Shown: positions 3,880 through 44,664, counted from the first letter of the stretch. The stretch: DNA of 51,446 nt from Pachysolen tannophilus NRRL Y-2460 (GCA_001661245.1 KV454012.1:774147-825592); one strand, 5' to 3'. Notes: a model not told the origin generated them from the sequence alone. Made by a program: numbers and translations.

Positions 3880-5667
3880 TTACAGAGTTCTAATAATACC
3901 AGCAGCCATTAAAGTAGTGATTTTTTTATAAACTTCAGGGTTTTTCATATGTTCTTGCAAAGCCGCTGGATTATCTCTTGCTTGCTGCAAGATACTATTC
4001 ATTACCGGATCTTGCAATATAGCAACCACTTCCGGATCTTTACTTGCTCTTTCTAGAGTTTGTTCTGGAGATTCACCTTCAACTGCAGCGAATCTTTGGG
4101 ATGATGCTTTATGGAATAATTGATCAATTTCATGTGTTGAAGTATTATCATTTAATTCAATTGCTTTTGCTCTCAGTTGTGATAAAGTTTCCATTGATTG
4201 AGAAAATTCTTTAAGAGCCAATTGAGCAGTTGCTTTTCTAATATAAGCTCTAATGAAATTAGGATCAAGTTTAATTGCCTCATTACAATCTTTAATAGCT
4301 TCTGGGAATGACATTAATTTTGCCAATGCAGCAGCTCTATTTGAATAACCTCTTGCATCTTTAGGAGCTCTTTTTATCATTTCAGTATATTGTTTAACAG
4401 CATTTGGCCAATCTCCTTTGGAAAAAAATTCCTTACCTGATAATCTTGCTTCTTCTGCTTTTTCTGGATCAACATACAGTTCAGATTCTCTTGTTTTTAA
4501 TAATTTTTCAGTTGATCTTAATTTATTCAAAGTTTCTGGTGTACGATGTTCTGTTAAAGATTTTTCAAAATAATGGATTGCCTTTGGTAAATCATCCATT
4601 TTTAAATAAGTATTACCAATTCTTGCAAATGATTTGGCAACTAATTTATAATCAGCTCTCATATCTCTACCTGCTTCAACAGCTTGTTCACATGTTTTAA
4701 TTGTTTGTTCATAATCACCTTTTTCAAATTCAGCAGCAGCACGATTATTTAAATAAGTGATATCATTGTGAAGGTTCCAAGCTTTATCATATAATGCAAT
4801 TGCTTCATCAAATTGACGTTTCTTATATAAAGCATTGGCTTCTTGTTTAAGAGCATTTGCTTGCTTTACAGAATCATCATCTTCTTGGTTCTTACTAGAA
4901 GATGCATCTTTCATTTCAACATCAGCTGCCTTTGACTGCTGATGATCTTTCTTTTCTTCCCCTTTCAGTTCATGTTCATGCTCATGTTCATGTCCATGTT
5001 CGTGTTCGTGTTCGTGATCATGGTCATGGTCATGATCATGATCATGTTCATTTTTTTCTTCAGCGTTAGGATTCATACTTAAATCAACACCCAATAACGA
5101 TGCCATAATTGTCATTAACCTTTGATCTTTCAAAAATTCACCAGCCATAGATTGAGGGTTTGCTTGTAATTGTTGAACTTTTGATACTAATTGTGGATCT
5201 TTCATCAATTCTGCAGTCTTTGGATTTTTCCTCAATTTTTCAATTAACATTGGATCAGAAAAAATTTGACCCATTCCTAAATCAGGTGGTTGTCTCTTTT
5301 GTTGTTCCAACAAGTTCTTAATGGTATCCAAACCTTCCTTTGCCATCTTATTACCTGGCTCTAATTCTAAAGCCTTTTCATAAGATTTTAATGCATCTTC
5401 ATAATGTCCTTTACCAAATTCAGCACCAGCTATTCTATTATAACCTTTTGCCCAAGATGGATTGATCTCCACACATTTCTCAGCATCTTTTAAAGCATCA
5501 TCAAATTTCTTCAAAGATGCAAAACATGCAGACCTATTCGAATACAATACATGATTTGGTACTGTAGAAACTTCAATAGCTTTTGAAAATGATTCAACAG
5601 CTTTATCAAATTGTTTGGCACTGAAATACAGATTACCTTCAGCCTTTAATTCTTCAACAGAAGACAT
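3880..5667 (-). CDS. STI1: Hsp70/Hsp90 co-chaperone Sti1/Hop
   Basis: TPR1-DP1-TPR2A-TPR2B-DP2 architecture; NHVLYSNRSA, KSLTEHRTP, ARGYSNRAAALAKL, ILQDPVM..AAGII. Confidence 0.97.
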   Translation of the reverse strand: MSSVEELKAEGNLYFSAKQFDKAVESFSKAIEVSTVPNHVLYSNRSACFASLKKFDDALKDAEKCVEINPSWAKGYNRIAGAEFGKGHYEDALKSYEKALELEPGNKMAKEGLDTIKNLLEQQKRQPPDLGMGQIFSDPMLIEKLRKNPKTAELMKDPQLVSKVQQLQANPQSMAGEFLKDQRLMTIMASLLGVDLSMNPNAEEKNEHDHDHDHDHDHEHEHEHGHEHEHEHELKGEEKKDHQQSKAADVEMKDASSSKNQEDDDSVKQANALKQEANALYKKRQFDEAIALYDKAWNLHNDITYLNNRAAAEFEKGDYEQTIKTCEQAVEAGRDMRADYKLVAKSFARIGNTYLKMDDLPKAIHYFEKSLTEHRTPETLNKLRSTEKLLKTRESELYVDPEKAEEARLSGKEFFSKGDWPNAVKQYTEMIKRAPKDARGYSNRAAALAKLMSFPEAIKDCNEAIKLDPNFIRAYIRKATAQLALKEFSQSMETLSQLRAKAIELNDNTSTHEIDQLFHKASSQRFAAVEGESPEQTLERASKDPEVVAILQDPVMNSILQQARDNPAALQEHMKNPEVYKKITTLMAAGIIRTL

Positions 5668-5996
5668 TTGAATTGAAAAAATTTAAACTATTAAACTTAG
5701 AGAGAAATCTCAATGAATTTCAATTAATCAAATCACACACCGATAATAAACAATTTTTACTAATCGTTCAACTAGTTTCCAATATAATTTATTATATTTA
5801 TACCCATCATCTTCAAAACCTTTTTCAAATTTTTCTAGAAGAAACCAAAAATCAAAAAGTCAAAAAAGAAAAAATTGATTGATTCCCGCGCGCACGACCT
5901 TAAATTTTCCCTTTCAATTTTAGCGCCCAAAATTATTGCCAACGACGACGACGACAACAACAAAGAAGAAGCTCTTTAGATATTGGATCTAATCAT

Positions 5997-7469
5997 ATGG
6001 AGGGTAGAGGTTTATTGGGGAGTATGTCTGGTGGTGTTGATGGTTTTTTTGAGAGGGCTTCAGCTGGGTTTGTTGATTTTTTATTGGATAATGGGGTGAA
6101 AATATCTGAGAAAGTACAAGTTTGGGATTATAGAGATGTTAATCAAGGTAGAGGTTTGAAAGCTATTCAAGATATAGAGAAGGATGAGGTATTATTTTCT
6201 GTTCCCAGGTCTGTGATTTTGAATGTAGAGACGAGTTCGTTGCCGGAAGGTGTAAAAATGAAGTTGAAGGATCTTGGTCAGTGGGAAGCTTTAATAATTA
6301 CTATATTGTATGAGAAGTATACAAGTTTTTCCAAATGGATACCATATTTTGAAGTTTTACCATCTTCAAATTTTAATAATTTGATGTTTTGGGATCAAGA
6401 TGATTTAGTAAACTTGGGGCCTTCTTTGGTGTTGGATAGGATTGGTAAGGTTGAAGCTGAAGAAATGTATAAGAAAATTTTCCCCCAAATTGTTCAATCT
6501 TTAGGTTTATACGAATTGTTGAAAGATGTCAGTATTGATGAGTTTCATAAAGTAGCAAGCACGATCATGTCTTATTCCTTTGACGTTTCCAAAAGCGTTG
6601 ATACTAATGAAGAAGATGAGGAGGAGGAGGAAGAAGAAGAAGAATTTATCAAGACAATGGTTCCGTTAGCTGATACTTTAAACGCCGATACAAACTTGTG
6701 CAATGCTCATTTGATATATACAAAAGATGCATTGGTTATGACAGCTATCAGCAAGATTGGCAAAGGGGAACAGGTTTATAACTCATATGGAGAGCACCCA
6801 AACTCTGAAATTTTGAGAAGGTATGGTTATGTTGAACCAAATGGTTCAAAATTTGATTTTGGTGAAATACTTTTAACTTCAATTGAAAAAAATTTCTCTG
6901 AATTTTATAATATTGAAAATAATTTAATGACATTAATAATTAAAAGTATTTCTAAAAGTGAATTTTTAACTGAAATGGAAAATAGTATTATTTTTGAAAC
7001 TTATGAATGTTATAAAGATGGTGAAACAATACCTGAATTCATTCTTTTACTGCAAGTCTTAACTCTTGTTGGTTTAATTCATCAAAGTGAAGATGGTCTT
7101 GAACTGGAAACTTTCAAGTTGGAACAATTTATAAACAGATTAGTAAAGAAAAGTTTTATGTTGATTGAAGATGGGAAATTGACTAAATCTACAAAGGAAA
7201 ATATAATCAAAATTATGGAACTGAGAATTACAAGTTATACAAATTTCTTAAAGGAAAATAAACTTAGTTCCGATAATACAGATATTCATAAATTGAGAGT
7301 TTCAATGGCAAAATCCGTACTTAAATCGGAATTAGATTCTTTAAACAATACAAAGTTGAAATTTGCAACAAATTTTAAACTCATTGATGATGAAAAGATG
7401 ATTAGAAACGTTTTAAAACGAAAGATGCTGACTGATGATACCATTAGAACTAAGAAAGCAAAGAAATAG
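5997..7469 (+). CDS. RKM4: SET-domain ribosomal lysine methyltransferase Rkm4/Set7 (start may be the second ATG, MSGG)
   Basis: GRGLKA; MVPLADTLNAD; YGEHPNSEILRRYGYVE..GSKFDFGE; basic C-terminal NLS. Confidence 0.85.
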   Translation: MEGRGLLGSMSGGVDGFFERASAGFVDFLLDNGVKISEKVQVWDYRDVNQGRGLKAIQDIEKDEVLFSVPRSVILNVETSSLPEGVKMKLKDLGQWEALIITILYEKYTSFSKWIPYFEVLPSSNFNNLMFWDQDDLVNLGPSLVLDRIGKVEAEEMYKKIFPQIVQSLGLYELLKDVSIDEFHKVASTIMSYSFDVSKSVDTNEEDEEEEEEEEEFIKTMVPLADTLNADTNLCNAHLIYTKDALVMTAISKIGKGEQVYNSYGEHPNSEILRRYGYVEPNGSKFDFGEILLTSIEKNFSEFYNIENNLMTLIIKSISKSEFLTEMENSIIFETYECYKDGETIPEFILLLQVLTLVGLIHQSEDGLELETFKLEQFINRLVKKSFMLIEDGKLTKSTKENIIKIMELRITSYTNFLKENKLSSDNTDIHKLRVSMAKSVLKSELDSLNNTKLKFATNFKLIDDEKMIRNVLKRKMLTDDTIRTKKAKK

Positions 7470-7567
7470 AATTAGAAATCAGGAATCGGTTTCTTTTGAT
7501 TTTTTTTTCTTGTATAAAACTGTAAAATATACATATATTTAAATAAATTGTAAATGAAAATAAATTT

Positions 7568-7575
7568 GTAAACAA
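7568..7575 (+). promoter_or_regulatory. Forkhead-type site GTAAACAA upstream of BUB3
   Basis: Exact Fkh/Hcm1-type motif about 115 bp before the ATG; single short site in AT-rich DNA. Confidence 0.3.
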
Positions 7576-7687
7576 ATCAAACTATTATTGTTTAAATTAG
7601 ATGTCGATATATATATAAATATAAATAAAATATATATGTATGGAATATTCTATATATCTCAAGTGATTTTGAGAGATAGATTGGGTC

Positions 7688-8674
7688 ATGAGTAAGATGG
7701 TAGAGCTACCTGATCCGCCTGGAGATATAATAACGTCATTAAAATTGTCACCGGTTTATCCAAATCATTTATTGGCTACATCTATAGATGGACAAATCAA
7801 ATTGTACGATATCAGGGCCAATACATCATTACAAGTTTTAAATAGCACTCATGGTGGGATATTAGATTCTTGCTTTTTAGTGGATTCAAATAGATCGTTT
7901 ATTGGTAATAGTGATGGAATAATATCAGAATTAGATTTTATAAACGAGACATGTAATAAAAAAATTGGTAAACCTCATACAAACGGTATCAAAAGTTTAA
8001 TTTCAATTGATCAAAATTCATTAATTAGTGGATCCTGGGATAAGACTTTCCAAAAAATTGATTTAAGGTCACCACAAGTTAGTGAAATATATGATTTACC
8101 TGGAAAAGTTTTTGCAATGGATTCAAGTCAAGATAAGAATAAAATAGTTATTGCAATGTCCAAAAGATTAATTCATATTTATGATCCAAGATTTATAGAT
8201 AAACCATTACAAGTAAGAGAAAGTGGACTAAGATATCAGACAAGATCCATAAAATGTATGCCAGATAATCAAGGTTTTGTAATTGCATCCATAGAGGGGA
8301 AAGTTGCAGTTGAATACTTTGATTTATCAAATGAGGTCCAATCAAAGAAATATGCCTTTAAATGCCACAGATCAAAAGATCAAACCAATACCAACATAGA
8401 GCAAGAAATAGTCTCTTCAGTGAATTCATTATGTTTTGGTAAAGAAAATGAATTATTCACCGGTGGTAGCGATTGTAATGTTTACCTTTGGAATTATCAT
8501 ACAAAGAAAAGATCAAGACTGTTCCTGTTTGATAAAAGTGTGGTTTATATGAATTTTAACGAAAAATACAACTCATTGATAATAGGATGTAGCGATGACT
8601 CTTACAAGGCTATCCCATATACTTCTGCTGGCTCAAAGCATTCGGATTCAAAAATTTATATCCAATCTTTTTAG
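7688..8674 (+). CDS. BUB3: Spindle checkpoint WD40 protein Bub3
   Basis: RESGLRYQTRSIKC, SIEGKVAVEYFD, KKYAFKCHR, TGGSD; WD40 repeats. Confidence 0.9.
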   Translation: MSKMVELPDPPGDIITSLKLSPVYPNHLLATSIDGQIKLYDIRANTSLQVLNSTHGGILDSCFLVDSNRSFIGNSDGIISELDFINETCNKKIGKPHTNGIKSLISIDQNSLISGSWDKTFQKIDLRSPQVSEIYDLPGKVFAMDSSQDKNKIVIAMSKRLIHIYDPRFIDKPLQVRESGLRYQTRSIKCMPDNQGFVIASIEGKVAVEYFDLSNEVQSKKYAFKCHRSKDQTNTNIEQEIVSSVNSLCFGKENELFTGGSDCNVYLWNYHTKKRSRLFLFDKSVVYMNFNEKYNSLIIGCSDDSYKAIPYTSAGSKHSDSKIYIQSF

Positions 8675-19510: not shown

Positions 19511-20677
19511 TTAGTTGATGACAAGTTCATATAGGACAAAAGGTTGATAGTCTGTATCGACCAAAGATGCGTATTCGTGCAAGTTAGAGTCCAAATCTTT
19601 TGATATTTTCCCATTTTTGTCAACAGCAAATGCGTTACCACCCAAATAACCATATTTATCTATTAAATCTTTTTTAGCTTTTGGTATAAATTTCAGAGGT
19701 AATTTAACCAAGAAATAATAAAAATTTGGCGGGAGACCATATCTTAAGACACTTTCTATAAAAATTCTTAACATTTTTAAATGGTACCAGTTTGATATAA
19801 TATCTGAATAAGAAGTTTTTGTAAGTCTTATTAAATCATTTTTCAATATTGATTCCAGTCTTGAAGCATTAGAAAATTCTCTTTGTAAAGAATCAATTAA
19901 TTCTTGTGAATAATTGAATTCTCTTGGAATCCATTTATGTTCTCTAGCTGCTGCCAAGAATTCTGGTACATATTTTTTAAATAGAGTAACATTAAACAAA
20001 TAAAATTCTGAATCTTCATTAATTATATTTGCTGATCTAGGTATAACAAATTGAGTTAAAGTTTCATATGAATGTAAAAAATCTGATTTTAAATTTTTTG
20101 GAACAACAATTAATAAAGTAGTTAAATGTTCTGAATCTAATACAAAATCTGATTTTTTAACAATATCATGTAAAGATCTAACACTTAAATCTCCAGTTTT
20201 TTTCCTTTCAGCAGCTAAAAGATTTGATTTTGCAACATTATAATTTGTGTATACACTTCTAACATCATTATCTAAATTTAAAGCTTCTGTAGAAATAGCT
20301 TCAATTAAATCTTTTAAAGATTTATCCAATCTAAATTTTGATGTATTCCATTTAAAATTTTCTATAAATTGTGTTACAGGTTTATCATTAACCAATTTAA
20401 GATTATTAACCAATTTAGAATCATAAATACTATTAAAAATATCTAAAATCTTACCAATTGAACTCTCCAATTGACCATCCAACTTACTTAAATCTTCACT
20501 TTGTTGAACTAAAGAATCCAAAGTACCAATCTTAAAATCTGGAAGTTTAAAAGGTATAACCTCCACATTTTTACCACCATTAATACTTGATACTAACCAA
20601 TTATTTAAAGAAGAAGCATTGATCGATACATTCTCAGGCAACGAGAGAACTAAATAAGTTGCCAATTGCTCCGACAT
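19511..20677 (-). CDS. VMA5: V-ATPase V1 subunit C
   Basis: PDFKIGTLDSL, AERKKTGDLSVRSLHDIVK, FVLDSEHLTT, ESVLRYGLPP, YASLVDTDYQPFV. First ATG is 20677. Confidence 0.97.
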   Translation of the reverse strand: MSEQLATYLVLSLPENVSINASSLNNWLVSSINGGKNVEVIPFKLPDFKIGTLDSLVQQSEDLSKLDGQLESSIGKILDIFNSIYDSKLVNNLKLVNDKPVTQFIENFKWNTSKFRLDKSLKDLIEAISTEALNLDNDVRSVYTNYNVAKSNLLAAERKKTGDLSVRSLHDIVKKSDFVLDSEHLTTLLIVVPKNLKSDFLHSYETLTQFVIPRSANIINEDSEFYLFNVTLFKKYVPEFLAAAREHKWIPREFNYSQELIDSLQREFSNASRLESILKNDLIRLTKTSYSDIISNWYHLKMLRIFIESVLRYGLPPNFYYFLVKLPLKFIPKAKKDLIDKYGYLGGNAFAVDKNGKISKDLDSNLHEYASLVDTDYQPFVLYELVIN

Positions 20678-21151: not shown

Positions 21152-22507
21152 ATGTCTAAATCTTTGGAGGATCGTCTCAAGACCCATTCTTCGGCGTTTG
21201 ATAGTTTATTATCTTTAATTCCTGCCAGGTATTATTATGATGAAAATAGTGAAAATCAGTGGAAACTGAAAAAAAAATCAAAAGATGAATTAAAACTGAA
21301 TAAGAAACTGAAATTAGATCCTTCGAATATAGAGATTGAAAATTCGTCGGCTTCAGATATACTCCGGGAAAGGGAAAAGTTTGCTAAGCCTGTGGTAATA
21401 CCTGGATCCAAAGGTAATGGCATAGCTGTCCAAGATGACAAAGAACAACAGGAAGAAGAAGAAGAAGAAGAAGAAGAAGCAGGTTATAATAGCAGTGAAC
21501 TTGAAGAAGAAGAAGAAGAAGAAAATTTTATAAAATCGGATCACGAAGGTATTACCATGGTGTTTGATGACGAGGGAAATGAAATTGAGAAACAAGATGA
21601 AAGTGAAATTTCCACTTTAGTTTCCACTTCCACTTCTAGTAGTAATGGAAGTTCTTCTAAGAAACTGAAAAAATTATCTGATGAAGAAGAGAAATTAAAA
21701 CGTGAGAAATTGCTGAAATTAAAGGAAAAATTGTCTATGAAGATTAGTTTATTAAAAGAGAAGAGGAAAGCTTTAGGAACTAAAGTTCCTGGAGCACCAC
21801 AATCTAGAGAAGAAATTTTAGAACAGAGAAGACAAAAAGAAGAATCTAAGAAAAGAAAGCATGAAGAAGATGAAAAAGATGAAGAGGAGGATGATATAGA
21901 TGATGAAGATCAAAGCTCAGAAGATGAAGAATATGTAAATGAAGGCGGTAGTATGTTATTTCAAAATATTGTATTTGAAGATGGTGATAGAATAACTTCA
22001 GATTTATCATCTTTAAGAAAGAAACCAACTAAAAAGGGTCCTTCTAATAATGATATAAGAGCTCATTTACAAAAATTACAAAAAGAAAAGGAAAAATTAT
22101 CACAAATGTCAGATGAAGAAAAACTGAAATTTTTAGAAAAAGCAAAATGGAATAAAGCAATGCTTAATGTTGAAGGAGTAAAATTAAAAGATAATGAACA
22201 CTTGTTGAAGAAATCTCTTAGGAGAAAAGAACAGAAAAAGAGGAAATCAGAAAGAGAATGGAAAGAAAGAAAAGAAGATGTACAACTGACAGTACAAGCA
22301 AGACAAAAGAGAAGAGAAGAAAATTTACAATTAAGAAAAGAAAATAAAGGTAAAAAGGGTAAAAAACAACAAGCAATGAAAAGAAAATTCACAGGAACAA
22401 TAAGCAAAAATGGAAAGAAGAAGCAAAACCAAATAGGTGGTTCAAAAAATGGTGATAAAAGAGCTGGATTTGAAGGTGGAAGAAGTAGAAAAGCTGGAAA
22501 AAGGTAG
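21152..22507 (+). CDS. RRP14: Ribosome biogenesis protein Rrp14 (SURF6 family)
   Basis: MSKSLEDRLKTHSSAFDSLLSLIPARYYY; C-terminal SURF6 domain (KSEREWKER, KRREENL, RAGFEG). ATG is 21152; track start is TTG. Confidence 0.93.
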   Translation: MSKSLEDRLKTHSSAFDSLLSLIPARYYYDENSENQWKLKKKSKDELKLNKKLKLDPSNIEIENSSASDILREREKFAKPVVIPGSKGNGIAVQDDKEQQEEEEEEEEEAGYNSSELEEEEEEENFIKSDHEGITMVFDDEGNEIEKQDESEISTLVSTSTSSSNGSSSKKLKKLSDEEEKLKREKLLKLKEKLSMKISLLKEKRKALGTKVPGAPQSREEILEQRRQKEESKKRKHEEDEKDEEEDDIDDEDQSSEDEEYVNEGGSMLFQNIVFEDGDRITSDLSSLRKKPTKKGPSNNDIRAHLQKLQKEKEKLSQMSDEEKLKFLEKAKWNKAMLNVEGVKLKDNEHLLKKSLRRKEQKKRKSEREWKERKEDVQLTVQARQKRREENLQLRKENKGKKGKKQQAMKRKFTGTISKNGKKKQNQIGGSKNGDKRAGFEGGRSRKAGKR

Positions 22508-22661: not shown

Positions 22662-23306
22662 ATGACTAATAAGATTAACGATTTGTCAAATGAGATTGTA
22701 TCTTTAGCTGAAAAAATATTTCCATCAAGACTAGTGATTGAAGATATTGAAGATAATGATAATGATGAACGTTTTTTGCAATTAAGCGTTAAACATATCA
22801 ACAATTTAGATTCTGAGATAATATCAAGTTGTTTAAACTTGTTAGAATTAAACTTGAGCCATTATTATATCAAATATAATGGTGAGAATTGGAAAGATGG
22901 GAAATTATTAGAAATGCATGAAGATGGTTTAATCTATGTATATTATACTGATTACAAAAATAAGTGTAATGTACCCATTTTCCTTTCTTTTATGAATACA
23001 ATTGATAATGGCTTAAAAGTATTTTATCTTTACGAAATCCAAATCCTGGAAAATTATAGAAATCGTAAAAATGGAAGATTATTACTTTCAAAATTCCATG
23101 ATTTATGTTCTGAATTTAACCAAAAATCAAATGAAAAACTTTATGGAACTGCCTTAACTGTTTTCAGTGAAAACGAACTGGCATATAGATTTTACTTACA
23201 CAACGGATACTCAATCACAAACTACTCTCCCAAAGATAAGAAATTAAGACATGGAAAGATTCTCAAACCTGAATATTATATCTTATCAAGGCCTTTGAAA
23301 CCATAG
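22662..23306 (+). CDS. NAT4: N-alpha-acetyltransferase 40 (histone H4/H2A)
   Basis: GNAT fold: WKDGKLLEM, YLYEIQI, LTVFSEN..A..FY..GY, SP..K.LR, P.YYIL. Confidence 0.85.
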   Translation: MTNKINDLSNEIVSLAEKIFPSRLVIEDIEDNDNDERFLQLSVKHINNLDSEIISSCLNLLELNLSHYYIKYNGENWKDGKLLEMHEDGLIYVYYTDYKNKCNVPIFLSFMNTIDNGLKVFYLYEIQILENYRNRKNGRLLLSKFHDLCSEFNQKSNEKLYGTALTVFSENELAYRFYLHNGYSITNYSPKDKKLRHGKILKPEYYILSRPLKP

Positions 23307-29246: not shown

Positions 29247-30143
29247 TTATTTATTTGTATCGATGTTTAATTTATCTTTTAATGCAAATTTGACATTTGC
29301 ATAAACTTTATCAACAGCGTCTTCACAATTAACTTGAATCACTTTGTTCTGTTTCCCGTAATATTCAACTACAGGCATTGATGTTTCAACAAAAGTCTTG
29401 AATCTTTTCTTAATACTTTCAACGTTATCATCAGATCTACCAGAAGTTTCACCTCTTTTCAATAATCTTGTCAACATTACACTTTCTGGACATTGGAAAA
29501 ATAAAACTAATGAACTTTTAACAATTTGATTTTCAAATGTCAACAGCTGATCCATTTTTCTTGGAAATCCATCAATTAAAAACCTAAGATTACCTTTAGT
29601 AACTTCTTTTTCCATTGCTTGTTGTAATAAATTTATAGTAATTTCTTGTGGTACAATAGTACCTTCTTTTATACATGTCTTGATTAATTCACCATATTTT
29701 GAATTTGGATTATTTTGTTCAGCCCTTAACAAATCCCCAGCACTAAGATGAACAAATCCATAATCTTTAACTAAGTTGGCACATTGAGTACCTTTACCAC
29801 TACCAGGGCCTCCAAGAACAAATATAACCGAAACTTGATCTGAAGAGAAAGCAGGCTTTTTCAGTTGAAGATCAGGCTCAACAAACAGTGTCGGCATCTT
29901 TGAAGTAGATGGAGAAGAAACTGTATTATATATTGTGGTACCTATAGCCAACGTACCCAAAACTAATAATATTCTAAAATGATTTGGCTTACCTGAACCT
30001 GGGGAACCAGAGGAACCAGAAGATGAATAAAATCTATTTGTTTTGAAACCAAAACGAACACCCATCAATTGATTACAATTCATACGATTCAACCGACCAT
30101 ATCCATAATTAAAGTTCTTAAGCACCAATGACCTTCTAAACAT
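29247..30143 (-). CDS. URA6: UMP/CMP kinase with N-terminal targeting extension
   Basis: PAFSSDQVSVIFVLGGPGSGKGTQC, HLSAGDLLRAEQ, FLIDGFPRKMDQ, SGRSDDNVESIKKRF. First ATG is 30143; internal ATG at 29897. Confidence 0.95.
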   Translation of the reverse strand: MFRRSLVLKNFNYGYGRLNRMNCNQLMGVRFGFKTNRFYSSSGSSGSPGSGKPNHFRILLVLGTLAIGTTIYNTVSSPSTSKMPTLFVEPDLQLKKPAFSSDQVSVIFVLGGPGSGKGTQCANLVKDYGFVHLSAGDLLRAEQNNPNSKYGELIKTCIKEGTIVPQEITINLLQQAMEKEVTKGNLRFLIDGFPRKMDQLLTFENQIVKSSLVLFFQCPESVMLTRLLKRGETSGRSDDNVESIKKRFKTFVETSMPVVEYYGKQNKVIQVNCEDAVDKVYANVKFALKDKLNIDTNK

Positions 30144-32312: not shown

Positions 32313-33737
32313 ATGTCTTTAGCTAAGGTTGAGAGTTTTAACGATATCGTTAATGAGGAAGATTTGAAAGAAAAAGATTTGATTGATGATAATAATAATG
32401 GGTTTGAAGTGGTTGAATTTGAAAATGATTTAAATTATTTGTTGAATGGTGATGGTAAAGATAAGAAGATGAGTAAAAAAAAGAAAAAAGCTTTAAAGAA
32501 ACTTAAGGCTCTTAGTAATTCGGATGCTAATGCTGATGATATTGATTTTAAGAAGTTGAAGAATAAGCATAAAAAAGTTTCTGTGAATGTTCTTATTCAT
32601 GATATGGATGATTTAGATATTTCATCATCTTCTGCAGAAGAAGAAGATGATGACGATGAAGACGAAGATGATGATGCAGTAGTAACACCTTCGGTATCTT
32701 CACCTGCAGACCAGAGCTTAGCTTTAAGCAAAGAAAAATTCGGTGATAACGATTCCATTGATGAGAACTTGCTGGATCAAGTTTTACATGCAGAAGAGTT
32801 AAAGATGCTAGAAGGTTATAATTCTAATGATGAAAGTAATACTGCTAGTGGTAGCGGTAGTGGTAGCTCCAGCAGCTCTAGTAGTGAAAAACTGCATCAT
32901 AATCATCGTAAACACAAGAAATCAAAGAAAATTATGAAGCAAAAATTTGATAAGAGCGACAGAAACAAGTTGGATGCAAATGGTGACGTTATTGAACATC
33001 ATGGAAAACATTTCAAACATTTTGCTTCTCCGCCTCCTTATCTCCACCATAATCAGCACCACGAGCATCAGCACCACGAGCACCAGAAATTTCAACTGCA
33101 ACTGCATCTGCATCTGCATCTGCTGCACCATGAGCACAAGCATGAGCACCAAATGCTGCACCAGATGATGCATCAGATGCTGCAGAACCAGATGCTGCAC
33201 CGTGGTCATCATCATCCTGGCAAACATGAAAAGATGCGCGTTGGAAGTTTAGATAAATTCGGTGGCGGTAAAAAAAAAGAAAAGTTCAGAAAGGAAGGGA
33301 AACACCACCATAAAGGCCATGCAAGATTTGAAGAAGAAGAGTCAGCGCTAGCAACAGCTTTGATGATTCCTTCTGATGATATTAGTACAAATGAAAGACA
33401 CTTGTTACAAGAAGGTTCTAGAGAAAGAGCTGAAATTCTCTTGATGACTCAAAAGTTAAAATTAAGGATTCTTGATCTTTATGATAGTCTAGAGAAATCC
33501 TCCAAAGAATTTGAAACTAGCAATAGGTCCATTGATTCTAAAAGAACCGTTGACCAATTATTTCAAATGGACAGGGTTTTACTGCATGAACAGCATATCA
33601 TGAACGGTGTCTTTTTCAATGATTACCCTGATAGTGAGGACACCTACAGATCATTTTCGCCAATGGCATTTTCTCCACCTCCGGGAAGACGTCATGGTCA
33701 TGGTCATAAGCACAGACTAAGACACCACAGAAGGTAG
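32313..33737 (+). CDS. Hypothetical low-complexity His/Lys/Asp-rich protein
   Basis: 474-aa ORF with acidic, Ser, Lys and His/Gln tracts and a short helical region near the C-terminus; no family recognised. Confidence 0.75.
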   Translation: MSLAKVESFNDIVNEEDLKEKDLIDDNNNGFEVVEFENDLNYLLNGDGKDKKMSKKKKKALKKLKALSNSDANADDIDFKKLKNKHKKVSVNVLIHDMDDLDISSSSAEEEDDDDEDEDDDAVVTPSVSSPADQSLALSKEKFGDNDSIDENLLDQVLHAEELKMLEGYNSNDESNTASGSGSGSSSSSSSEKLHHNHRKHKKSKKIMKQKFDKSDRNKLDANGDVIEHHGKHFKHFASPPPYLHHNQHHEHQHHEHQKFQLQLHLHLHLLHHEHKHEHQMLHQMMHQMLQNQMLHRGHHHPGKHEKMRVGSLDKFGGGKKKEKFRKEGKHHHKGHARFEEEESALATALMIPSDDISTNERHLLQEGSRERAEILLMTQKLKLRILDLYDSLEKSSKEFETSNRSIDSKRTVDQLFQMDRVLLHEQHIMNGVFFNDYPDSEDTYRSFSPMAFSPPPGRRHGHGHKHRLRHHRR

Positions 33738-36509: not shown

Positions 36510-38696
36510 TTATATCCGACTATACATTTCCTTCATCATATTATTTAATTCTTGAATTTCATTACCATTTACCTCTGTATTATTATTATCCTTCTGGTTG
36601 TCATCGTCATCGTTTCTATCATCATCTTTTAAGATCCAACCTAAATCCTGTTCCTCAACAGGCTGCTTTTCTGACCCCGTAACAAAATCTATCGAGTTTC
36701 CCCTTGCAATATCCTGATTTTCTTCTTTTTGATAACCAAAATGATTTTCAACCATATGGTCAATAACCTGCCAACCATAAGCATTAGCAAATCTCCTTCT
36801 CACAGTTATATTGTTATGAGCATCTGGTTGCAAATTCACTAATACTTTCCTCCATGATAACTCTTTATGCCATAATCTTGCAATTTTTTCCTCCAATAAA
36901 TGGAACTTTATATTTGGATCCACCAAAGTGGTTAAAAAAGTGGTATTGGAATTATGTAAATTATTCTTAGGTAGATCATCTTCTGTGTACACTCTATCAT
37001 GTAAAATCACATTTTCCCTTGAACTCGGGTCAACGATGAATTTCAATGGAGGAAGTGGTGGTAGTAGCACTCTTGCTGCACTCTGAATGACAGATGATTT
37101 TGGAATTGGTTTTAAATCTTCATTGGTATCAAATGACAGTAATTCCTCACCGTTAGCATCTTCTCCTTCTTCTTTATTTGTAACTGTTTGAAACCTCTTG
37201 TATCTATTAGCAGGCTTTGGTTGAGCCATTGGTGCGCATAAAGCTAATATGCTTTGAAATGGCGATAATACTTTTGAAGAAACATCCTGAAAGAACTCAG
37301 TTGGCGAACCAGAGCTATTTTGAATATATGGAGTTTCAGGAATCTCTGAAACTCCATCAGAAGCAGCTTCAGTACTTTTCAGAGAGTTATTATTAGTACC
37401 ATTTTCAATATTTTTACTATCATGATTTGTTTGTGAGTCTTTTTTTCTTGCATTGGTAACTTCTGTCAATCCCTTCCAATCCAAATACAACAATGCTGAT
37501 GTCCTCAAGGGAACAATGCCATCGTGTAATACGTTTGCATATAATGTTCTATTTTTAAATCTTTTCAAGATATCATGTGCTGGACCTGTTGGTAACTTTA
37601 ACAACAACGGATGCGAACCTTGAAGACCTAAATCCTGACCAGTCTTACCTACAATTCCAACACTTAATGCCATTTTGACATATGCTGGGTTTTCATTAGC
37701 TATACCCAAGAGTGGAGATGCCAATGTTACAAAATTTTCCGGAATAACTTCTTCAAAAAATGAAGGGTAAGTGACAGTAATGTAAGCAATAGCAAATGTT
37801 TGAATTAAACCTCCTAAAGAATGGCCAATAAATGATATCTTGTTAATATTTGGGTAATTTTTATATACTTCCTCAACAATATACTCTGCCACTCTTGTTC
37901 CTAAATATTTTATACCCTTTTCAGTTTTGCAAACATTACCGTTGTAACCTTTTACGATAACATTCTCTCCAGTCTTCAGAGCCATTTTGTTAATAGCTTC
38001 TTTTATATAAAGCATATCAGCACCAACATTCGAGTAAAACCCATGGGTTAACATCACTAAATGTGCCGGTTTCAGCATGTTTGGAACCGGTTTATTCCAT
38101 AAATCAATTGCATCCTGATAAATAACATTAAGTTCAACAGGGTTAAAATTCTTGCTTTCTAATAAATGATGTTCATGATCATGTAAAGATTTCTTATCTG
38201 TACCTATCAATATTTCAAAATTAACTTCAGTGGAAGTGTTGAACAAGAGTTGACTCATCACATCAACAACCCAGACATATTTACTCTTGATGGTATGCAA
38301 AGAAAGCTCAGCTTCAAAACTTTGACCCGCTTGTAAATTTGGTTGAAATAAAGGTTGATCAGCAGTAATAAAACATTTCTTATTATGATCAAAATCCGAT
38401 GTCCTAATATCCACATACAATATATACGGCCCCAATAAGTAAGCAGCTCTCAATGGCAAGCTTTCCAAATTCTTAAACTTCAAAAATAAAGAAGAAGGTA
38501 AAGTATTCTCTGGTGATAATCGGTCACTTGATGGTGTATATTCAATGATAAACCTATTCAGCTCTCCTATTTTGACCGACTTATGGTTCTTATACAAGAT
38601 GCTACTGGCCATTTGACTCTGATCCTGAGGTTCCTTTCGACTATGATGATGCTTGTGATGATACTTCCTGGCCAACTTGTTAACGCAATTTACCAT
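36510..38696 (-). CDS. DUF676 serine lipase, Rog1/Ydl109c family
   Basis: LRAAYLLGPYILYVD, HLVMLTHG, KISFIGHSLGG, FVTLASPLLG, LYANVLHDGIVPLRTS, DAHNNITVRRRFANAYGW. Confidence 0.9.
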   Translation of the reverse strand: MVNCVNKLARKYHHKHHHSRKEPQDQSQMASSILYKNHKSVKIGELNRFIIEYTPSSDRLSPENTLPSSLFLKFKNLESLPLRAAYLLGPYILYVDIRTSDFDHNKKCFITADQPLFQPNLQAGQSFEAELSLHTIKSKYVWVVDVMSQLLFNTSTEVNFEILIGTDKKSLHDHEHHLLESKNFNPVELNVIYQDAIDLWNKPVPNMLKPAHLVMLTHGFYSNVGADMLYIKEAINKMALKTGENVIVKGYNGNVCKTEKGIKYLGTRVAEYIVEEVYKNYPNINKISFIGHSLGGLIQTFAIAYITVTYPSFFEEVIPENFVTLASPLLGIANENPAYVKMALSVGIVGKTGQDLGLQGSHPLLLKLPTGPAHDILKRFKNRTLYANVLHDGIVPLRTSALLYLDWKGLTEVTNARKKDSQTNHDSKNIENGTNNNSLKSTEAASDGVSEIPETPYIQNSSGSPTEFFQDVSSKVLSPFQSILALCAPMAQPKPANRYKRFQTVTNKEEGEDANGEELLSFDTNEDLKPIPKSSVIQSAARVLLPPLPPLKFIVDPSSRENVILHDRVYTEDDLPKNNLHNSNTTFLTTLVDPNIKFHLLEEKIARLWHKELSWRKVLVNLQPDAHNNITVRRRFANAYGWQVIDHMVENHFGYQKEENQDIARGNSIDFVTGSEKQPVEEQDLGWILKDDDRNDDDDNQKDNNNTEVNGNEIQELNNMMKEMYSRI

Positions 38697-38874: not shown

Positions 38875-39861
38875 ATGACGGAGGTAGTTTCGTTATCTGG
38901 ACCAGAGCAGCATGATGATGAGAGCACTTTGAAAGTGAGCAGTAATTATTCTAAAGATACAAAAGTTGGTGAAGGTACTTATGCTGTTGTTTATGTAGGA
39001 GTTCAGAAGTCATCGCATAGAAAGATTGCTATTAAGGAAATCAAGACTGGAGGATTTAAAGATGGATTAGATATGTCTGCTATAAGGGAGATGAAATATT
39101 TACAAGAATTAAGACATGTTAATATTATTGAGTTGATTGATATTTATTCTGAGCATAATGGTTTGAATTTGATTTTAGAATATTTACCATACGATTTAGA
39201 AATGTTAATAAAGGATAAATCGATTATTTTCACTCCGCTGAATATCAAATCTTGGATGTTGATGACACTAAGAGGTTTACATCATTGTCATAGGAATTTC
39301 ATATTACATAGGGATTTGAAACCAAATAATTTATTGCTTTCTCCTCAAGGTGTATTGAAAATTGCTGATTTTGGGTTAGCAAGATCTTTAGGGGCACCAA
39401 ATGAAGAGTTAACTTCAAATGTGGTGACAAGATGGTACAGAGCACCTGAATTGTTGTTTGGATCTAAGCATTATACCGGTGCGATAGATATATGGTCTGT
39501 TGGTGTAATATTTGCTGAATTAATGTTGAGAACACCTTATTTACCGGGACTGAATGATATGGACCAATTAATAGTGACTTTTAGAGCTTTAGGCTCTCCA
39601 ACAGAGGCAAACTGGACAAATGTTTCCAAATTACCGGGATATAATAAGATAAATATTTATCCTCCTCCTACAAGACAAGAATTGAGAAATAGATTTTCTG
39701 CAGCTACAGAAAGTACATTAGATTTGATTTGTTCAATGTTGATGTTAGATCCTTTGAAAAGATGCACCACAACTGAAGCTTTATTGAGTAAATATTTTGT
39801 TGAATCGCCTAGAGCAACTGATCCTAAAAGTTTGCCCAAGATTGTACCAAAGAATAAATAA
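38875..39861 (+). CDS. KIN28: TFIIH kinase Kin28 (CDK7)
   Basis: GEGTYAVVY, FKDGLDMSAIRE, HRDLKPNNLL, DFGLAR, LTSNVVTRWYRAPELLFG. Confidence 0.97.
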   Translation: MTEVVSLSGPEQHDDESTLKVSSNYSKDTKVGEGTYAVVYVGVQKSSHRKIAIKEIKTGGFKDGLDMSAIREMKYLQELRHVNIIELIDIYSEHNGLNLILEYLPYDLEMLIKDKSIIFTPLNIKSWMLMTLRGLHHCHRNFILHRDLKPNNLLLSPQGVLKIADFGLARSLGAPNEELTSNVVTRWYRAPELLFGSKHYTGAIDIWSVGVIFAELMLRTPYLPGLNDMDQLIVTFRALGSPTEANWTNVSKLPGYNKINIYPPPTRQELRNRFSAATESTLDLICSMLMLDPLKRCTTTEALLSKYFVESPRATDPKSLPKIVPKNK

Positions 39862-39923
39862 ATAGAATAAAATAAAATAAAATAGAATTGAACTTTTTTT
39901 CATTTTTTTTTTTTTTTTAATCG

Positions 39924-41129: not shown

Positions 41130-41265
41130 TAATAATTATCAATTGGAAATTGATCACATTCACTTTTTTAGTATTTATTTAGTGTGTGTATTTTTTTTTT
41201 AGTACAAATCGCAAATGTAGCATTATTTCATTTAATTTTAAAACTGTTTTAAACAAAAAATTAGA

Positions 41266-43605
41266 ATGAACAACGCCCAATATGGTGGGAACAATAGGGT
41301 AGATAATGGTGGTGAGAGTGAGGTAAAGGCTAAGGATGTTACGTTGAGTGATTATCGGAAAGAGTATGAGTCGACAGTTGGTTCTGGTGGTATTGCTAAT
41401 GGGAACAGAATGGAAAATATACCAAGCAGTTGGTGGTTTTGGAAAAGTACACAGGATGGCGAGTTGAATGGTAATGGAATAAAGAATCAGGAAGCTCAAG
41501 GTGGTACTTCAGCTAACCCTCAAGTGGATAAAATAGGATCAACTAATAATAATAATAGTAACAATAATAATAATAATGTTCAGGAAGAATTAAATACTGG
41601 AATGCAACTGCTGGTTTCGCAGCCTCTGGAATCCCTGCTGCAAGTCCTGGTGCCTTTGGTCTCTGAGTCTGTGCCTGCTCCTGTTTCTGTGCCTGTGCTG
41701 CTGGAACAACATTCACCACAGTTGCAGCAGATGCAAGACGAGAGTAATGGAAGAATGAACTGGGTGTCATGGATTAACCCAGTTCCAATTGTTTCTGCGG
41801 CTTTTTCGTATGTTTACGCAGATAATACAGGACCTACACAACAGTCAAGAACAATTTTACCTAATGAACTTTCTTCAGTTGTTAATAGTAATGAAATAAC
41901 AAGTGATGCAGGTTCATCTCATATCCAAGAACAAGACAACAGTAATAACAATGGTTATTTAACTTGGATAACGCCTTGGAGTTATTGGCAGAAGAATAAA
42001 GGTGAATCTGCTGCAGATACCACAGAAGAATTAGCAGAGAGATCAATGTATTCTTCTGTAGATTCTGCAGAAATTGCAAACGACGCAAAAAAGCTGTTAA
42101 CAAATAATATTAATGGGAATAATGGAAGTAGTTATTGGGGGTTTCACTCAAAACCAAACAAGACAAAGAAATTTTTTGGAGAACTTGCTGTTGTGGGAAC
42201 TGGAAGTGAAAATCATCCAGCTAGAATGGTTAATCCTCCCATAACTTTCTTAGAAAACCAAGAACGTCTTTTAAATGACGCGAGGAATAGAGATGAGGTA
42301 AAACCATTGATTGTTCCTAATATGAACGAAAATTATAGAAATATTACTTTTAAGACCAAGACAAGAATAATATTATCCAAGAACAAATTTTTGAATGAAA
42401 AGCTTCATTTTAAAAAAGAAACGCATTTATATCGTTTATCACCCAAAGAGCAACTATTGTCAAATAAAAAAATGAAAAAACTGGTAATTATAGGCTTACA
42501 TGGATTTTATCCTATAAAAATGGTGAAAACCCTTATAGGGCGACAAACTGGGACTGCGTCTACATTTGTTAATATGGCCACTGCTGCTTTATGGGATTGG
42601 TGTGCTTCAAATGATTGTGATATTGATCTTGATACCATTGCTTTAGAATTTGATGGTAAAATCTCTGAAGGTTGCGAAAATTTAATCAAGTTATTAAACA
42701 AAAATTGGATCGATGTTATTAAAAATTGTGATTTCCTATATATTGTATCCAATTCTCAAAGTTGTATTGTTGCAACTCATTTGTTGGAAAAATTAGTTGA
42801 ACAAAAAATTATATTGTCTGCAAATCAAAAAGTTTCCATGTTAAACATGGATGGAATTTTCCAAGGTCCTTTCAATAATTTAGATTCAAAATTGATTTTA
42901 AAGAATTATTCGCCATTGGAGAATGGAACTTTGAATGAAGTATTTAATTTCCAAAAAAATCTAAGTTTCGAAAGTTCAAAACTTATTAGTAGTTTAAACA
43001 GAATCTTACAAACAGATGCAAATGTGAAGATTTCATTTATTGGATCTATATCCGATTGTTTTGTTCCTTTATATTCATCATTGTTTTTAAATATTGACCA
43101 TCCAAATATTTTCAGATGTTGTTATGTGGATGCTAATAGCAATGAAGAAGATACTCCAAAATTTTTGATTGAATTAATCAATATACTTTTATTTTTGAAA
43201 AATGTCGGATACCCAGACAATCATTTAGTTTTTGAGTTATCAGAAAGTTTAGCTGGAACAGTCACTGGTAAATACCCTGATGATTTTTATGAAAACAAAG
43301 ATATTTATGTGTTAGGGATCAAGAATTGTTTAGAGACTACAGATTTAATTGATGAACATACATGTGAAAATATTGACATGAATTTTGACTCCAAGACTCT
43401 AAATAAGAACCCTTACTATCTACCATATTTTTTGAAGAGCTTTCTAAACCAATTGGATACTTTAGGAAATGATAAAAATATTAGAGGCAAAGAGTTGAAG
43501 CTGAAGCTCTTGCTGGTTTTTCTGGAATGGAACCCAAAAAGCAAAAAATTTAAAGACTTGAAGTATGCTATTGATGTCATTTATACCGAGGGAAGCTTTA
43601 TTTAG
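41266..43605 (+). CDS. Conserved fungal protein, YML020W-like (alpha/beta-hydrolase-like C-terminal domain)
   Basis: VIIGLHGFYP..LIG.QTGT, GSISD.FVPLYSS, HPNIFR..YVD, ELSESLAG, NPYYLP, EWNPKSK..KDLKY. Confidence 0.75.
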   Translation: MNNAQYGGNNRVDNGGESEVKAKDVTLSDYRKEYESTVGSGGIANGNRMENIPSSWWFWKSTQDGELNGNGIKNQEAQGGTSANPQVDKIGSTNNNNSNNNNNNVQEELNTGMQLLVSQPLESLLQVLVPLVSESVPAPVSVPVLLEQHSPQLQQMQDESNGRMNWVSWINPVPIVSAAFSYVYADNTGPTQQSRTILPNELSSVVNSNEITSDAGSSHIQEQDNSNNNGYLTWITPWSYWQKNKGESAADTTEELAERSMYSSVDSAEIANDAKKLLTNNINGNNGSSYWGFHSKPNKTKKFFGELAVVGTGSENHPARMVNPPITFLENQERLLNDARNRDEVKPLIVPNMNENYRNITFKTKTRIILSKNKFLNEKLHFKKETHLYRLSPKEQLLSNKKMKKLVIIGLHGFYPIKMVKTLIGRQTGTASTFVNMATAALWDWCASNDCDIDLDTIALEFDGKISEGCENLIKLLNKNWIDVIKNCDFLYIVSNSQSCIVATHLLEKLVEQKIILSANQKVSMLNMDGIFQGPFNNLDSKLILKNYSPLENGTLNEVFNFQKNLSFESSKLISSLNRILQTDANVKISFIGSISDCFVPLYSSLFLNIDHPNIFRCCYVDANSNEEDTPKFLIELINILLFLKNVGYPDNHLVFELSESLAGTVTGKYPDDFYENKDIYVLGIKNCLETTDLIDEHTCENIDMNFDSKTLNKNPYYLPYFLKSFLNQLDTLGNDKNIRGKELKLKLLLVFLEWNPKSKKFKDLKYAIDVIYTEGSFI

Positions 43606-43884
43606 AACTGATCCGATCTCACGTTTCGAGTTATTACAGATGTTGTTTGTGTGTATGCCTTAGTGCGAGCCTGCCTGTGTGTGAGCCTGCCTACGTGTGT
43701 ATATTGTGGTTTTGTAGTTTTCAGTATCTTCAATATAAATCTATAAATTTTTCCTGCATAATTAACTAACTATTAATTTTATATATATTTATATTTATAT
43801 ATATGATTTATTAATTAAATAATTTTCCCTTATTTTCAATTTTAATCAAAACGATCTCTTGGAATTTCCATAAGGTAAAAGGAA

Positions 43885-44664
43885 ATGGTTGCTAGCTGGC
43901 AACGTCAACTTTCAATTGCTTTAGAAGAAAGAGATTTAACTGAAAAACTGAATATTGATTATTATAAGGCTTGTATGTATAAATCATCAAAAAATGAGCA
44001 TTCAAAAAAAAAAATGAACCATACATTAACAGGTTTATTAAATCATTTAGTTGAACTATCTGCTATTAAAGTATATCGCTTAGAAAATGAGTTAGAAAAC
44101 ATTCAAAAGACAGATATTCAAAAGTAAGTTGTAGTTTTTAAATCATTTAAATATGTATTTTGTTCTTACTTACTAACATTTACCTTTTTATAGAGAATTG
44201 ACAAACGCTTTAAGAGAAATTAATACTTTAAAACTAGAAAATGAAAATTTGAAACGTAATCAGTCAAGAGAAGAATTAAAATTAAGAGAGGCAAGGAAAA
44301 ATGCTCTGGAATTAGAGAAACAGTAAGTAAATTTGCTTTTATTTGATTCTCAATTGATTAATTTCTTATTATTAACACAAAGTAAACTTTTTTTGTCATA
44401 TATAGTCTTGATACATTAAGGGATGCCTACCGGAAATTGGAAAAAAATTATAGGAATCTAAAAGAAGAGTCAGATACCAAGTTCAAGAACTTAGATGTCA
44501 TCAATGATGAAATATTATCTTTACAAATTGAGAATAATTTATTAAATAAAGAAAACTCCGATTTAAAGTTAGAAAATGATAAAATGGTTCAGAGATGGCT
44601 TAAAAAAGTGGAAAAAGACGCTAATTTTTTAAATCAGGTTGTTGAGAAAGCTGATAACAAATAA
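43885..44664 (+). CDS. ATG16: Autophagy protein Atg16, 182 aa; exons 43885-43972, 44051-44123, 44194-44322, 44406-44664
   Basis: Exons total 549 nt in one frame. N-terminal Atg5-binding helix (W..LEERD..EK) and C-terminal coil INDEILSLQIENNLL..ENDKMVQRWLKK. The track shows only two fragments. Confidence 0.88.
43973..44050 (+). other. ATG16 intron 1 (78 nt, in frame, stop-free)
   Basis: GTATGT donor, CATTAAC 44024-44030, TAG acceptor. Confidence 0.72.
44124..44193 (+). other. ATG16 intron 2 (70 nt)
   Basis: GTAAGT donor, TACTAAC 44171-44177, TAG acceptor. Confidence 0.9.
44323..44405 (+). other. ATG16 intron 3 (83 nt)
   Basis: GTAAGT donor, TATTAAC 44370-44376, TAG acceptor. Confidence 0.87.

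What the first reader, a model, noticed from the sequence alone, without database searches (positions are those of the whole stretch)
3880..44664. Non-standard genetic code: CTG appears to encode Ala
Seen: URA6 GFPRKMDQ[CTG] (29544-29546, -), where NMP kinases have a conserved QA. RRP14 QWK[CTG]KKK (21266) vs S. cerevisiae QWKAKKK, and KK[CTG]KLDP (21308). STI1 TLSQ[CTG]R (4174-4176, -) vs TLDAAR. KIN28 FTP[CTG] (39238) vs FTPA. NAT4 YEIQI[CTG] (23046) vs YEVHVA. The comparison sequences are from memory. Established: CUG=Ala is used by Pachysolen tannophilus and relatives, so this identifies the clade and corrects the translations; it is not new in itself.
Basis: partly seen in the sequence, partly recalled or inferred. 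Interest (0 to 1): 0.75.

Follow-up and report, generated by a model that had tools for sequence, protein, structure and literature searches.

The report
Known yeast CTG-to-alanine genetic code

Summary
Four of the five comparisons it made from memory hold. NAT4 could not be verified.

The public proteins of this contig already carry Ala at CTG. TRM3 has Ala at 9 of 9 sites and RRP14 at 6 of 6. The table-26 translations of VMA5, KIN28 and NAT4 are found exactly, and the standard translations 0 of 5.

The six sites were a favourable selection. I tabulated 24 alignable CTG sites in four proteins, with CTG masked. Ala is the best single reading (log-likelihood A -1.6, L -20.2, S -26.0). CTG avoids conserved Leu columns (1/24 against 171/332, p=2e-6).

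CTG also avoids conserved Ala columns (1/24 against 84/147 for GCN, p=6e-7). Seven TRM3 sites lie in weakly conserved Leu-type columns. CTG sites look like young substitutions from codons one mutation away.

The tRNA could not be tested: the window has no tRNA and no genome is held. A TRM3 tree puts the organism sister to Pichiaceae, where the published CUG-Ala clade lies.

Verdict: real, already known and already annotated. Low interest.

The parts
3880..5667 (-). STI1 ORF (595 aa) with 5 CTG codons (13, 234, 397, 498, 595)
4174..4176 (-). CTG, STI1 codon 498: the one CTG at a highly conserved Ala column (A in 118 of 120 homologues, V in 2)
4477..4479 (-). CTG, STI1 codon 397: column S 50, A 38, L 23 of 120; A in S. 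cerevisiae and human
3883..3885 (-). CTG, last codon of STI1 (595): column R in 115 of 120, neither Ala nor Leu
21152..22507 (+). RRP14 ORF (451 aa) with 7 CTG codons; the public protein of this gene has A at the 6 it covers
21266..21268 (+). CTG, RRP14 codon 39: Q 62, A 45, L 5 of 119; A in S. cerevisiae
21308..21310 (+). CTG, RRP14 codon 53: A 48, K 38, L 4 of 119
23046..23048 (+).
29544..29546 (-). CTG, URA6 codon 200: A in S. cerevisiae, L in human, N in Dictyostelium, G in Schistosoma
39238..39240 (+). CTG, KIN28 codon 122: A in S. cerevisiae Kin28, S in human CDK7
19856..19858 (-). CTG, VMA5 codon 274: L in S. cerevisiae, D in human (counter-example)
44942..49327 (+). TRM3 ORF (1461 aa) with 9 CTG codons. 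The public protein has A at all 9. Seven of the nine lie in columns where Leu is the commonest residue (weighted 0.27-0.60), e.g. codons 17 (44990), 149 (45386), 947 (47780)
38559..38561 (-). CTG, codon 46 of the DUF676 esterase-like ORF (36510-38696): column V 38, I 15, L 7 of 72 occupied

Best explanation
The window is nuclear DNA of a budding yeast of the CUG-Ala clade (Pachysolen, Nakazawaea, Peterozyma; NCBI table 26). In this clade CTG/CUG is read as alanine.

Mechanism (from the literature, not tested here): a tRNA-Ala whose anticodon mutated to CAG is still charged by alanyl-tRNA synthetase, because that enzyme recognises the acceptor stem (G3:U70, A73) and not the anticodon. The ancestral tRNA-Leu(CAG) is gone.

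Shown here: Ala is the best single decoding of the alignable CTG sites. CTG avoids conserved Leu and Ser columns. The public proteins of this contig already carry Ala at CTG.

Inferred here: present-day CTG codons are mostly derived. No GCN alanine codon is one mutation away from CTG, so CTG arises from Leu (TTG, CTN), Gln, Arg, Pro, Val or Met codons at positions that tolerate Ala. This would explain why CTG is rare at conserved Ala columns and frequent at weakly conserved Leu-type columns.
For: Public annotation:
- The collection's copy of the window's TRM3 differs from the standard translation only at the 9 CTG codons, and all 9 are A.
- The window's RRP14 copy has A at 6 of 6 covered CTG sites.
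- Table-26 translations of VMA5, KIN28 and NAT4 are found exactly (3 of 5 tried). Standard translations are found for 0 of 5.

Column analysis (CTG masked as X; 119, 120, 119 and 85 homologues; 24 of 26 CTG sites kept at occupancy of at least 0.7):
- Log-likelihoods are A -1.6, K -15.7, Q -19.1, L -20.2, S -26.0.
- The same scoring recovers the standard amino acid for 57 of 60 other codons.
- The A-over-L margin ranges from 28.0 to 10.8 nats for pseudocount 0.01 to 0.2.
- Columns at least 50% Leu: CTG 1/24 against 171/332 for the five other Leu codons (p=1.9e-6). Columns at least 80% Leu: 0/24 against 82/332 (p=0.002).
- STI1-498 has A in 118/120.

S. cerevisiae residue at sites compared only pairwise: A at URA6-200 and KIN28-122.

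Phylogeny: in a TRM3 tree of 28 named yeasts the query is sister to C. boidinii, Pichia, C. arabinofermentans and Komagataella, with support 1.0.

Literature (passages read):
- In Pachysolen, 97.2% of 907 fragment-supported CUG positions are Ala, and the tRNA(CAG) carries G3:U70 and A73 (PMC4937558).
- The Ala clade is Pachysolen, Nakazawaea and Peterozyma, split from the Leu2 clade within Pichiaceae (PMC5951914).
Against: - The in-window support for Ala is thin. The per-site log-likelihood for A is about 0 (-0.07), against +1.0 to +1.75 for the four GCN codons.
- Ala is the commonest residue at only 3 of 24 sites, and Leu at 7 of 24 (all in TRM3).
- TRM3 alone favours Leu (L +4.8, A -2.5).
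- CTG differs sharply from GCN codons. Columns at least 50% Ala: 1/24 against 84/147 (p=6e-7). Hydrophobic columns with little Ala: 6/24 against 3/147 (p=2.6e-4).
- S. cerevisiae has L at VMA5-274.
- At RRP14-188 the pairwise alignment gave L in S. cerevisiae, but the multiple alignment gives E 34, A 28, K 28, L 5 of 119.
- The tRNA-Ala(CAG) was not seen: no tRNA or Rfam hit in the window and no genome is held.
- Only 35 of the 96 CTG codons were examined.
- The public annotation is not independent evidence of decoding.
Confidence: 0.93

Rival explanations
1. Standard code: CTG is leucine, and the Ala matches are chance picks among 96 sites.
For: Seven of nine TRM3 CTG sites sit in columns where Leu is the commonest residue, and TRM3 alone scores L +4.8 against A -2.5. 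S. cerevisiae has L at VMA5-274. At RRP14-188 the pairwise alignment gave L.
Against: Over all 24 sites L scores 18.6 nats below A. CTG is at 0/24 sites in columns at least 80% Leu and 1/24 in columns at least 50% Leu, against 82/332 and 171/332 for the other Leu codons (p=0.002 and 1.9e-6). STI1-498 would put Leu at a position that is Ala in 118/120. The standard translations of five genes are absent from the public collection, while table-26 translations of three are present. Published proteomics for the clade shows Ala (PMC4937558, passages).
Confidence: 0.02
2. CUG-Ser code (table 12 type, or the Ascoidea/Saccharomycopsis type): CTG is serine.
For: Ser and Ala substitute readily for each other. 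STI1-397 has S 50 against A 38 of 120. Human CDK7 has S at KIN28-122.
Against: S scores -26.0 against A -1.6. No CTG site lies in a column at least 50% Ser (0/24). The TRM3 tree puts the query with Pichiaceae. It does not group with Babjeviella, Metschnikowia or Scheffersomyces, nor with Saccharomycopsis. The public proteins carry A, not S.
Confidence: 0.01
3. Dual decoding: CTG is read mainly as Ala but partly as Leu (for example by wobble of a tRNA-Leu(UAG)). This would allow CTG to persist at Leu-type positions, as in TRM3.
For: CTG sites are of two kinds. Some are Ala-compatible (STI1, RRP14) and some are Leu/Ile/Val-type (7 in TRMSee below
Against: No CTG lies in a strongly conserved Leu column (0/24 at 80% or more). 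The Leu-type columns are all weakly conserved (Leu at most 0.60), as expected if Ala is tolerated there. Published spectra give 97.2% Ala, with ambiguity at only 8 of 907 positions in Pachysolen, and 96.5% Ala in N. peltata (PMC4937558 and PMC6041473, passages). Origin by mutation from Leu codons explains the pattern without any second tRNA.
Confidence: 0.04

Closest known systems
Pachysolen tannophilus nuclear code (NCBI table 26; CUG-Ala clade of Pachysolen, Nakazawaea and Peterozyma)
   Same: CTG is best read as Ala. CTG is absent from conserved Leu and Ser columns. The public proteins carry Ala at CTG. The organism is sister to the Pichiaceae Leu2 clade. CTG makes up 96 of 574 (16.7%) of Ala codons if counted as Ala.
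   Different: Nothing tested differs. The paper's statement that CUG lies 'mainly at conserved alanine positions' (PMC4937558, passage) is not what these four proteins show: 1 of 24 sites is in a column at least 50% Ala. The tRNA and the peptides were not testable here.
CUG-Ser1 code of Candida, Debaryomycetaceae and Metschnikowiaceae (table 12)
   Same: The same codon is reassigned, by capture through a tRNA whose synthetase ignores the anticodon. CTG codons are derived rather than inherited from ancestral Leu CTG.
   Different: The amino acid is Ser, not Ala, and the clade is different. Here S scores 24.4 nats below A, and the tree excludes that clade.
Stochastic CUG decoding in Ascoidea asiatica (competing Ser and Leu tRNAs)
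   Same: CTG is depleted from conserved alignment positions (median top-residue frequency 0.39 at CTG sites against 0.50 over all columns).
   Different: That system has two competing tRNA(CAG) species, and CUG is among its rarest codons. Here CTG is fairly common (96 in 12,929 codons), one site is at a 97% Ala column, and published spectra for the Ala clade show a single meaning.
Eremothecium mitochondrial CUN-to-Ala reassignment
   Same: CUG is read as alanine by a tRNA charged through G3:U70.
   Different: It is mitochondrial, and it arose by changing the acceptor stem of a tRNA-Thr rather than the anticodon of a tRNA-Ala (PMC4937558, passage). It is not relevant to these nuclear genes.

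Membership tests
CUG-Ala nuclear code (NCBI table 26) | Ala is the best-supported amino acid at CTG-aligned orthologue columns | tested here: met
   Log-likelihood over 24 sites is A -1.6, next K -15.7, L -20.2, S -26.0. Controls: 57 of 60 other codons recovered. The support is weak per site, and only 1 of 24 sites is in a column at least 80% Ala.
CUG-Ala nuclear code (NCBI table 26) | CTG absent from conserved Leu positions | tested here: met
   0/24 in columns at least 80% Leu against 82/332 for the other Leu codons (p=0.002). 1/24 against 171/332 at 50% or more (p=1.9e-6).
CUG-Ala nuclear code (NCBI table 26) | tRNA with anticodon CAG carrying Ala identity (G3:U70, A73, short variable arm), and no tRNA-Leu(CAG) | not testable with these tools
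   No tRNA in the window, no Rfam hit, no whole genome held.
CUG-Ala nuclear code (NCBI table 26) | Peptides with Ala at CUG positions | not testable with these tools
   Literature only: 97.2% of 907 supported positions in Pachysolen (PMC4937558, passage).
CUG-Ala nuclear code (NCBI table 26) | Phylogenetic position sister to the Pichiaceae CUG-Leu2 clade | tested here: met
   Single-gene (TRM3) FastTree of 28 named yeasts plus the query. The query joins the four Pichiaceae with support 1.0, and those four exclude the query at 0.947. No named Ala-clade species was in the set.
CUG-Ala nuclear code (NCBI table 26) | Deposited proteins translated with Ala at CTG | tested here: met
   TRM3 9/9 and RRP14 6/6 sites are A. 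Three of five table-26 translations are found exactly, against 0 of 5 standard ones.
CUG-Ser codes (table 12; Ser2 clade) | CTG at conserved Ser columns | tested here: not met
   0/24 in columns at least 50% Ser; S log-likelihood -26.0.
Standard code (CTG=Leu) | A substantial share of CTG at conserved Leu columns, like the other Leu codons | tested here: not met
   See the Leu-column counts above. PMC4986446 (passage) reports that on average 14.3% of CUG codons lie at leucine positions at least 90% conserved in standard-code yeasts, and none in Pachysolen.

The most novel reading that the evidence does not exclude
In this lineage CTG(Ala) codons form their own evolutionary class and are not just a fifth alanine codon. 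CTG cannot be reached from GCN by one mutation. CTG codons therefore enter genes as replacements of Leu, Gln, Arg, Pro, Val or Met codons at weakly constrained sites, and stay nearly absent from conserved alanines. The reassignment would then act as a standing Leu-to-Ala (and similar) substitution channel. In these four proteins the pattern is clear. The commonest column residue is a single-step neighbour (L, V, M, P, Q, R) at 13/24 CTG sites, against 13/147 GCN sites. Columns at least 50% Ala hold 1/24 CTG sites against 84/147 GCN sites. This runs against the published summary 'mainly at conserved alanine positions'.
Probability: 0.45. Interest if true: 0.35.

Novelty: already known. Interest (0 to 1): 0.15.

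Why it matters
The practical point is correct translation. 22 of the 26 long ORFs in this window contain CTG (96 codons), so a standard-code translation puts a wrong residue in most proteins. The public annotation already handles this.

The code itself has been published since 2016 and is an NCBI table, so nothing new follows from recognising it. The side observation, that CTG sites behave like neither Leu nor ordinary Ala codons, is a small quantitative point about how a captured codon repopulates a genome. It would need genome-wide data to be worth reporting.

Tried and rejected
ARAGORN and Rfam find nothing in the window.

2. A first TRM3 alignment with CTG translated as L could pull CTG sites towards Leu columns. 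I repeated it with CTG masked as X. The Leu-type pattern stayed, so it is not an alignment artefact.

3. Solved-structure searches for the WD40 ORF (7688-8674) and the SDR ORF (15462-16283) returned nothing because my E-value cut-offs were too strict.

4. TIP20 pairwise alignments are too divergent to trust (E 3e-14 to 1e-10). Its sites 174, 450 and 727 (I, V, R) are low-confidence, and sites 12 and 32 are unaligned.

5. Two DUF676 sites (439, 520) were dropped for occupancy below 0.7. Of the 150 representatives, only 85 (500-1000 aa) were aligned.

6. Earlier notes of this scan on this genome: none exist.

7. STI1 and DLD were found in the public collection under neither code. Different gene models are the likely reason, so this says nothing either way.

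8. Low-complexity CTG clusters (ORFs 32313-33737 and 41266-43605) were judged uninformative for decoding.
Full report
**What the window is.**
The window is AT-rich (GC 0.28-0.31). It holds 26 ATG-started ORFs of at least 150 aa. Pfam and solved structures identify them as ordinary budding-yeast genes. They include STI1, a SET-domain protein, a D-2-hydroxyglutarate/D-lactate dehydrogenase, a kinesin, VMA5, RRP14, a Naa40-type acetyltransferase, URA6, TIP20, a DUF676 esterase, KIN28 and TRM3. These ORFs contain 96 CTG codons among 12,929 codons, and 22 of the 26 ORFs have at least one. Counted as Leu, CTG would be 96 of 1,448 Leu codons. Counted as Ala, it would be 96 of 574 Ala codons.

**The observation.**
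Its comparisons were made from memory, and I checked them against solved structures and alignments.
- URA6-200: A in S. cerevisiae uridylate kinase, but L in human UMP-CMP kinase, N in Dictyostelium and G in a Schistosoma kinase.
- STI1-498: A in S. cerevisiae and in 118 of 120 homologues.
- KIN28-122: A in S. cerevisiae, S in human CDK7.
- RRP14-39: A in S. cerevisiae, K in Chaetomium. The column has Q 62, A 45 of 119.
- RRP14-53: A is the commonest residue, 48 of 119.
- NAT4-129: not verified. S. pombe has D and human has E, and no S. cerevisiae sequence was reachable.

**The code is already in the public annotation.**
- The collection's copy of this contig's TRM3 protein differs from my standard translation at exactly the nine CTG codons, and all nine read A.
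- The collection's RRP14 has A at all six CTG sites it covers.
- In an exact-sequence look-up, the table-26 translations of VMA5, KIN28 and NAT4 are present (sources NCBI, UniRef, nr).
- The standard translations of five genes are all absent.
- STI1 and DLD are found under neither code, probably because the deposited gene models differ.

This shows the finding is already known for this very record. It is not independent evidence of decoding.

**An unselected tally.**
The six cited sites were chosen because they fit, so I tabulated every CTG site I could align. I fetched homologue sets for TRM3 (119), STI1 (120), RRP14 (119) and the DUF676 protein (85 of 150 representatives, those of 500-1000 aa). 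I masked CTG as X in the query and aligned with MAFFT L-INS-i.

Of the 26 CTG codons in these proteins, 24 lie in columns with weighted occupancy of at least 0.7. A Codetta-like log-likelihood over sequence-weighted column frequencies recovers the standard amino acid for 57 of 60 other codons. For CTG it gives A -1.6, K -15.7, Q -19.1, L -20.2, S -26.0. Ala stays ahead of Leu by 10.8 to 28.0 nats across pseudocounts.

CTG does not behave like a Leu codon.
- 1 of 24 sites is in a column at least 50% Leu, against 171 of 332 for TTA, TTG, CTT, CTC and CTA (p=1.9e-6).
- 0 of 24 sites are in a column at least 80% Leu, against 82 of 332 (p=0.002).
- This matches the published criterion that Pachysolen has no CUG at highly conserved Leu positions (PMC4986446, passage).

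**Results against a simple reading.**
The support for Ala is thin.
- The per-site log-likelihood for A is about zero, against +1.0 to +1.75 for GCN codons.
- Ala is the commonest residue at 3 of 24 sites and Leu at 7. The rest are K 4, Q 2, R 2, and one each of P, S, E, I, D and V.
- All seven Leu sites are in TRM3. TRM3 alone scores L +4.8 against A -2.5. This survived masking of CTG (searches compared).
- CTG also differs from GCN. It is at 1/24 against 84/147 sites in columns at least 50% Ala (p=6e-7). It is at 6/24 against 3/147 sites in hydrophobic columns with little Ala (p=2.6e-4).
- Mean Ala frequency at CTG columns is 0.153 against a background of 0.074. Only 2.65% of random 24-column draws reach that value.

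Eleven further sites could be compared only pairwise with solved structures. At these the closest orthologue has A at 2 (URA6-200, KIN28-122) and L at 1 (VMA5-274). Other residues occupy the remaining 8, three of them in low-confidence TIP20 alignments. In all, 35 of the 96 CTG codons were examined.

**How I reconcile this.**
No GCN codon is one mutation from CTG. Its single-step neighbours encode Leu (TTG, CTA, CTC, CTT), Val, Met, Pro, Gln and Arg. If CTG means Ala, new CTG codons must arise as replacements of those residues where Ala is tolerated.

The commonest column residue is one of L, V, M, P, Q or R at 13 of 24 CTG sites. The figure is 13 of 147 for GCN sites (p=1e-6) and 30% for all other columns (p=0.01). 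CTG sites are also poorly conserved: the median top-residue frequency is 0.39, against 0.50 overall and 0.75 for GCN. The Leu-type columns are all weak, with Leu at most 0.60. This fits the published loss-then-capture model (PMC4937558, passages). It is an inference from four proteins.

**Mechanism.**
The published mechanism is a tRNA-Ala with anticodon CAG that keeps G3:U70 and A73. Alanyl-tRNA synthetase charges it because the enzyme does not read the anticodon. In Pachysolen, 97.2% of 907 fragment-supported CUG positions are Ala (PMC4937558, passages). In Nakazawaea peltata the figure is 96.5% (PMC6041473, passage).

I could not test the tRNA. The window has no tRNA gene and no Rfam match, and no genome is held.

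**Clade.**
The closest named homologues are Komagataella, Candida boidinii, C. arabinofermentans and Kuraishia, at only 40-48% identity for TRM3 and RRP14. In a TRM3 tree of 28 named yeasts the query is sister to the four Pichiaceae, with support 1.0. This is where the Ala clade is placed (PMC5951914, passage). No named Ala-clade species was in my set, so genus-level identity is not shown. Codetta is reported to agree with the known CUG distribution in 453 of 462 yeast species (PMC8629427, passage).

**Verdict.**
The code has been published since 2016, is an NCBI table, and is already applied to this record. The selected examples overstate the in-window evidence, which is real but modest. Interest is low. 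The only mildly new point is the distinct evolutionary behaviour of CTG sites.

Noticed in passing
window 33096-33125 (+), in ORF 32313-33737: A hexamer repeat (CAA/CAT + CTG) puts six CTG codons within ten codons of a His/Gln-rich low-complexity protein. It reads Q-A-Q-A-H-A-H-A-H-A-A-H under table 26. The ORF has 12 CTG codons in all and no Pfam match.
   Followed up: partly
window 41608-41703 (+), in ORF 41266-43605: Eight CTG codons cluster within 32 codons of an N-terminal low-complexity stretch. The ORF has 13 CTG codons in all and no Pfam match. Its C-terminal part looks like a conserved domain.
   Followed up: no
window 3883-3885 (-): The last codon of STI1 is CTG, at a position where 115 of 120 homologues end in Arg. 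CGG is one mutation from CTG.
   Followed up: partly
window 4960-5060 (-), STI1 residues about 204-235: The STI1 linker holds a long alternating His/acidic repeat (DH and EH dipeptides). The homologues shown do not have it.
   Followed up: no
window 21152-22507 (+): The public protein for RRP14 is 347 aa and ends at '...VKLKD'. The ORF runs on to 451 aa and aligns with S. cerevisiae Rrp14 to its end. The deposited gene model looks truncated.
   Followed up: partly
window 29862-30143 (-): The URA6 ORF has an N-terminal extension of about 94 residues relative to the S. cerevisiae structure (the alignment starts at residue 95). It holds two more CTG codons (86, 94). It may be a targeting sequence, or the true start may be a later ATG.
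   Followed up: no
P0121 (STI1 homologue, 63% identity) and P0242 (RRP14 homologue, 54%): These are the closest unnamed homologues. They show L at 3 of the 12 positions where the window has CTG (STI1-397, RRP14-49, RRP14-325) and A at 3 (STI1-498, RRP14-53, RRP14-188). They may come from Ala-clade relatives whose own CTG was translated as Leu by a standard-code gene caller. Their DNA could not be fetched.
   Followed up: no
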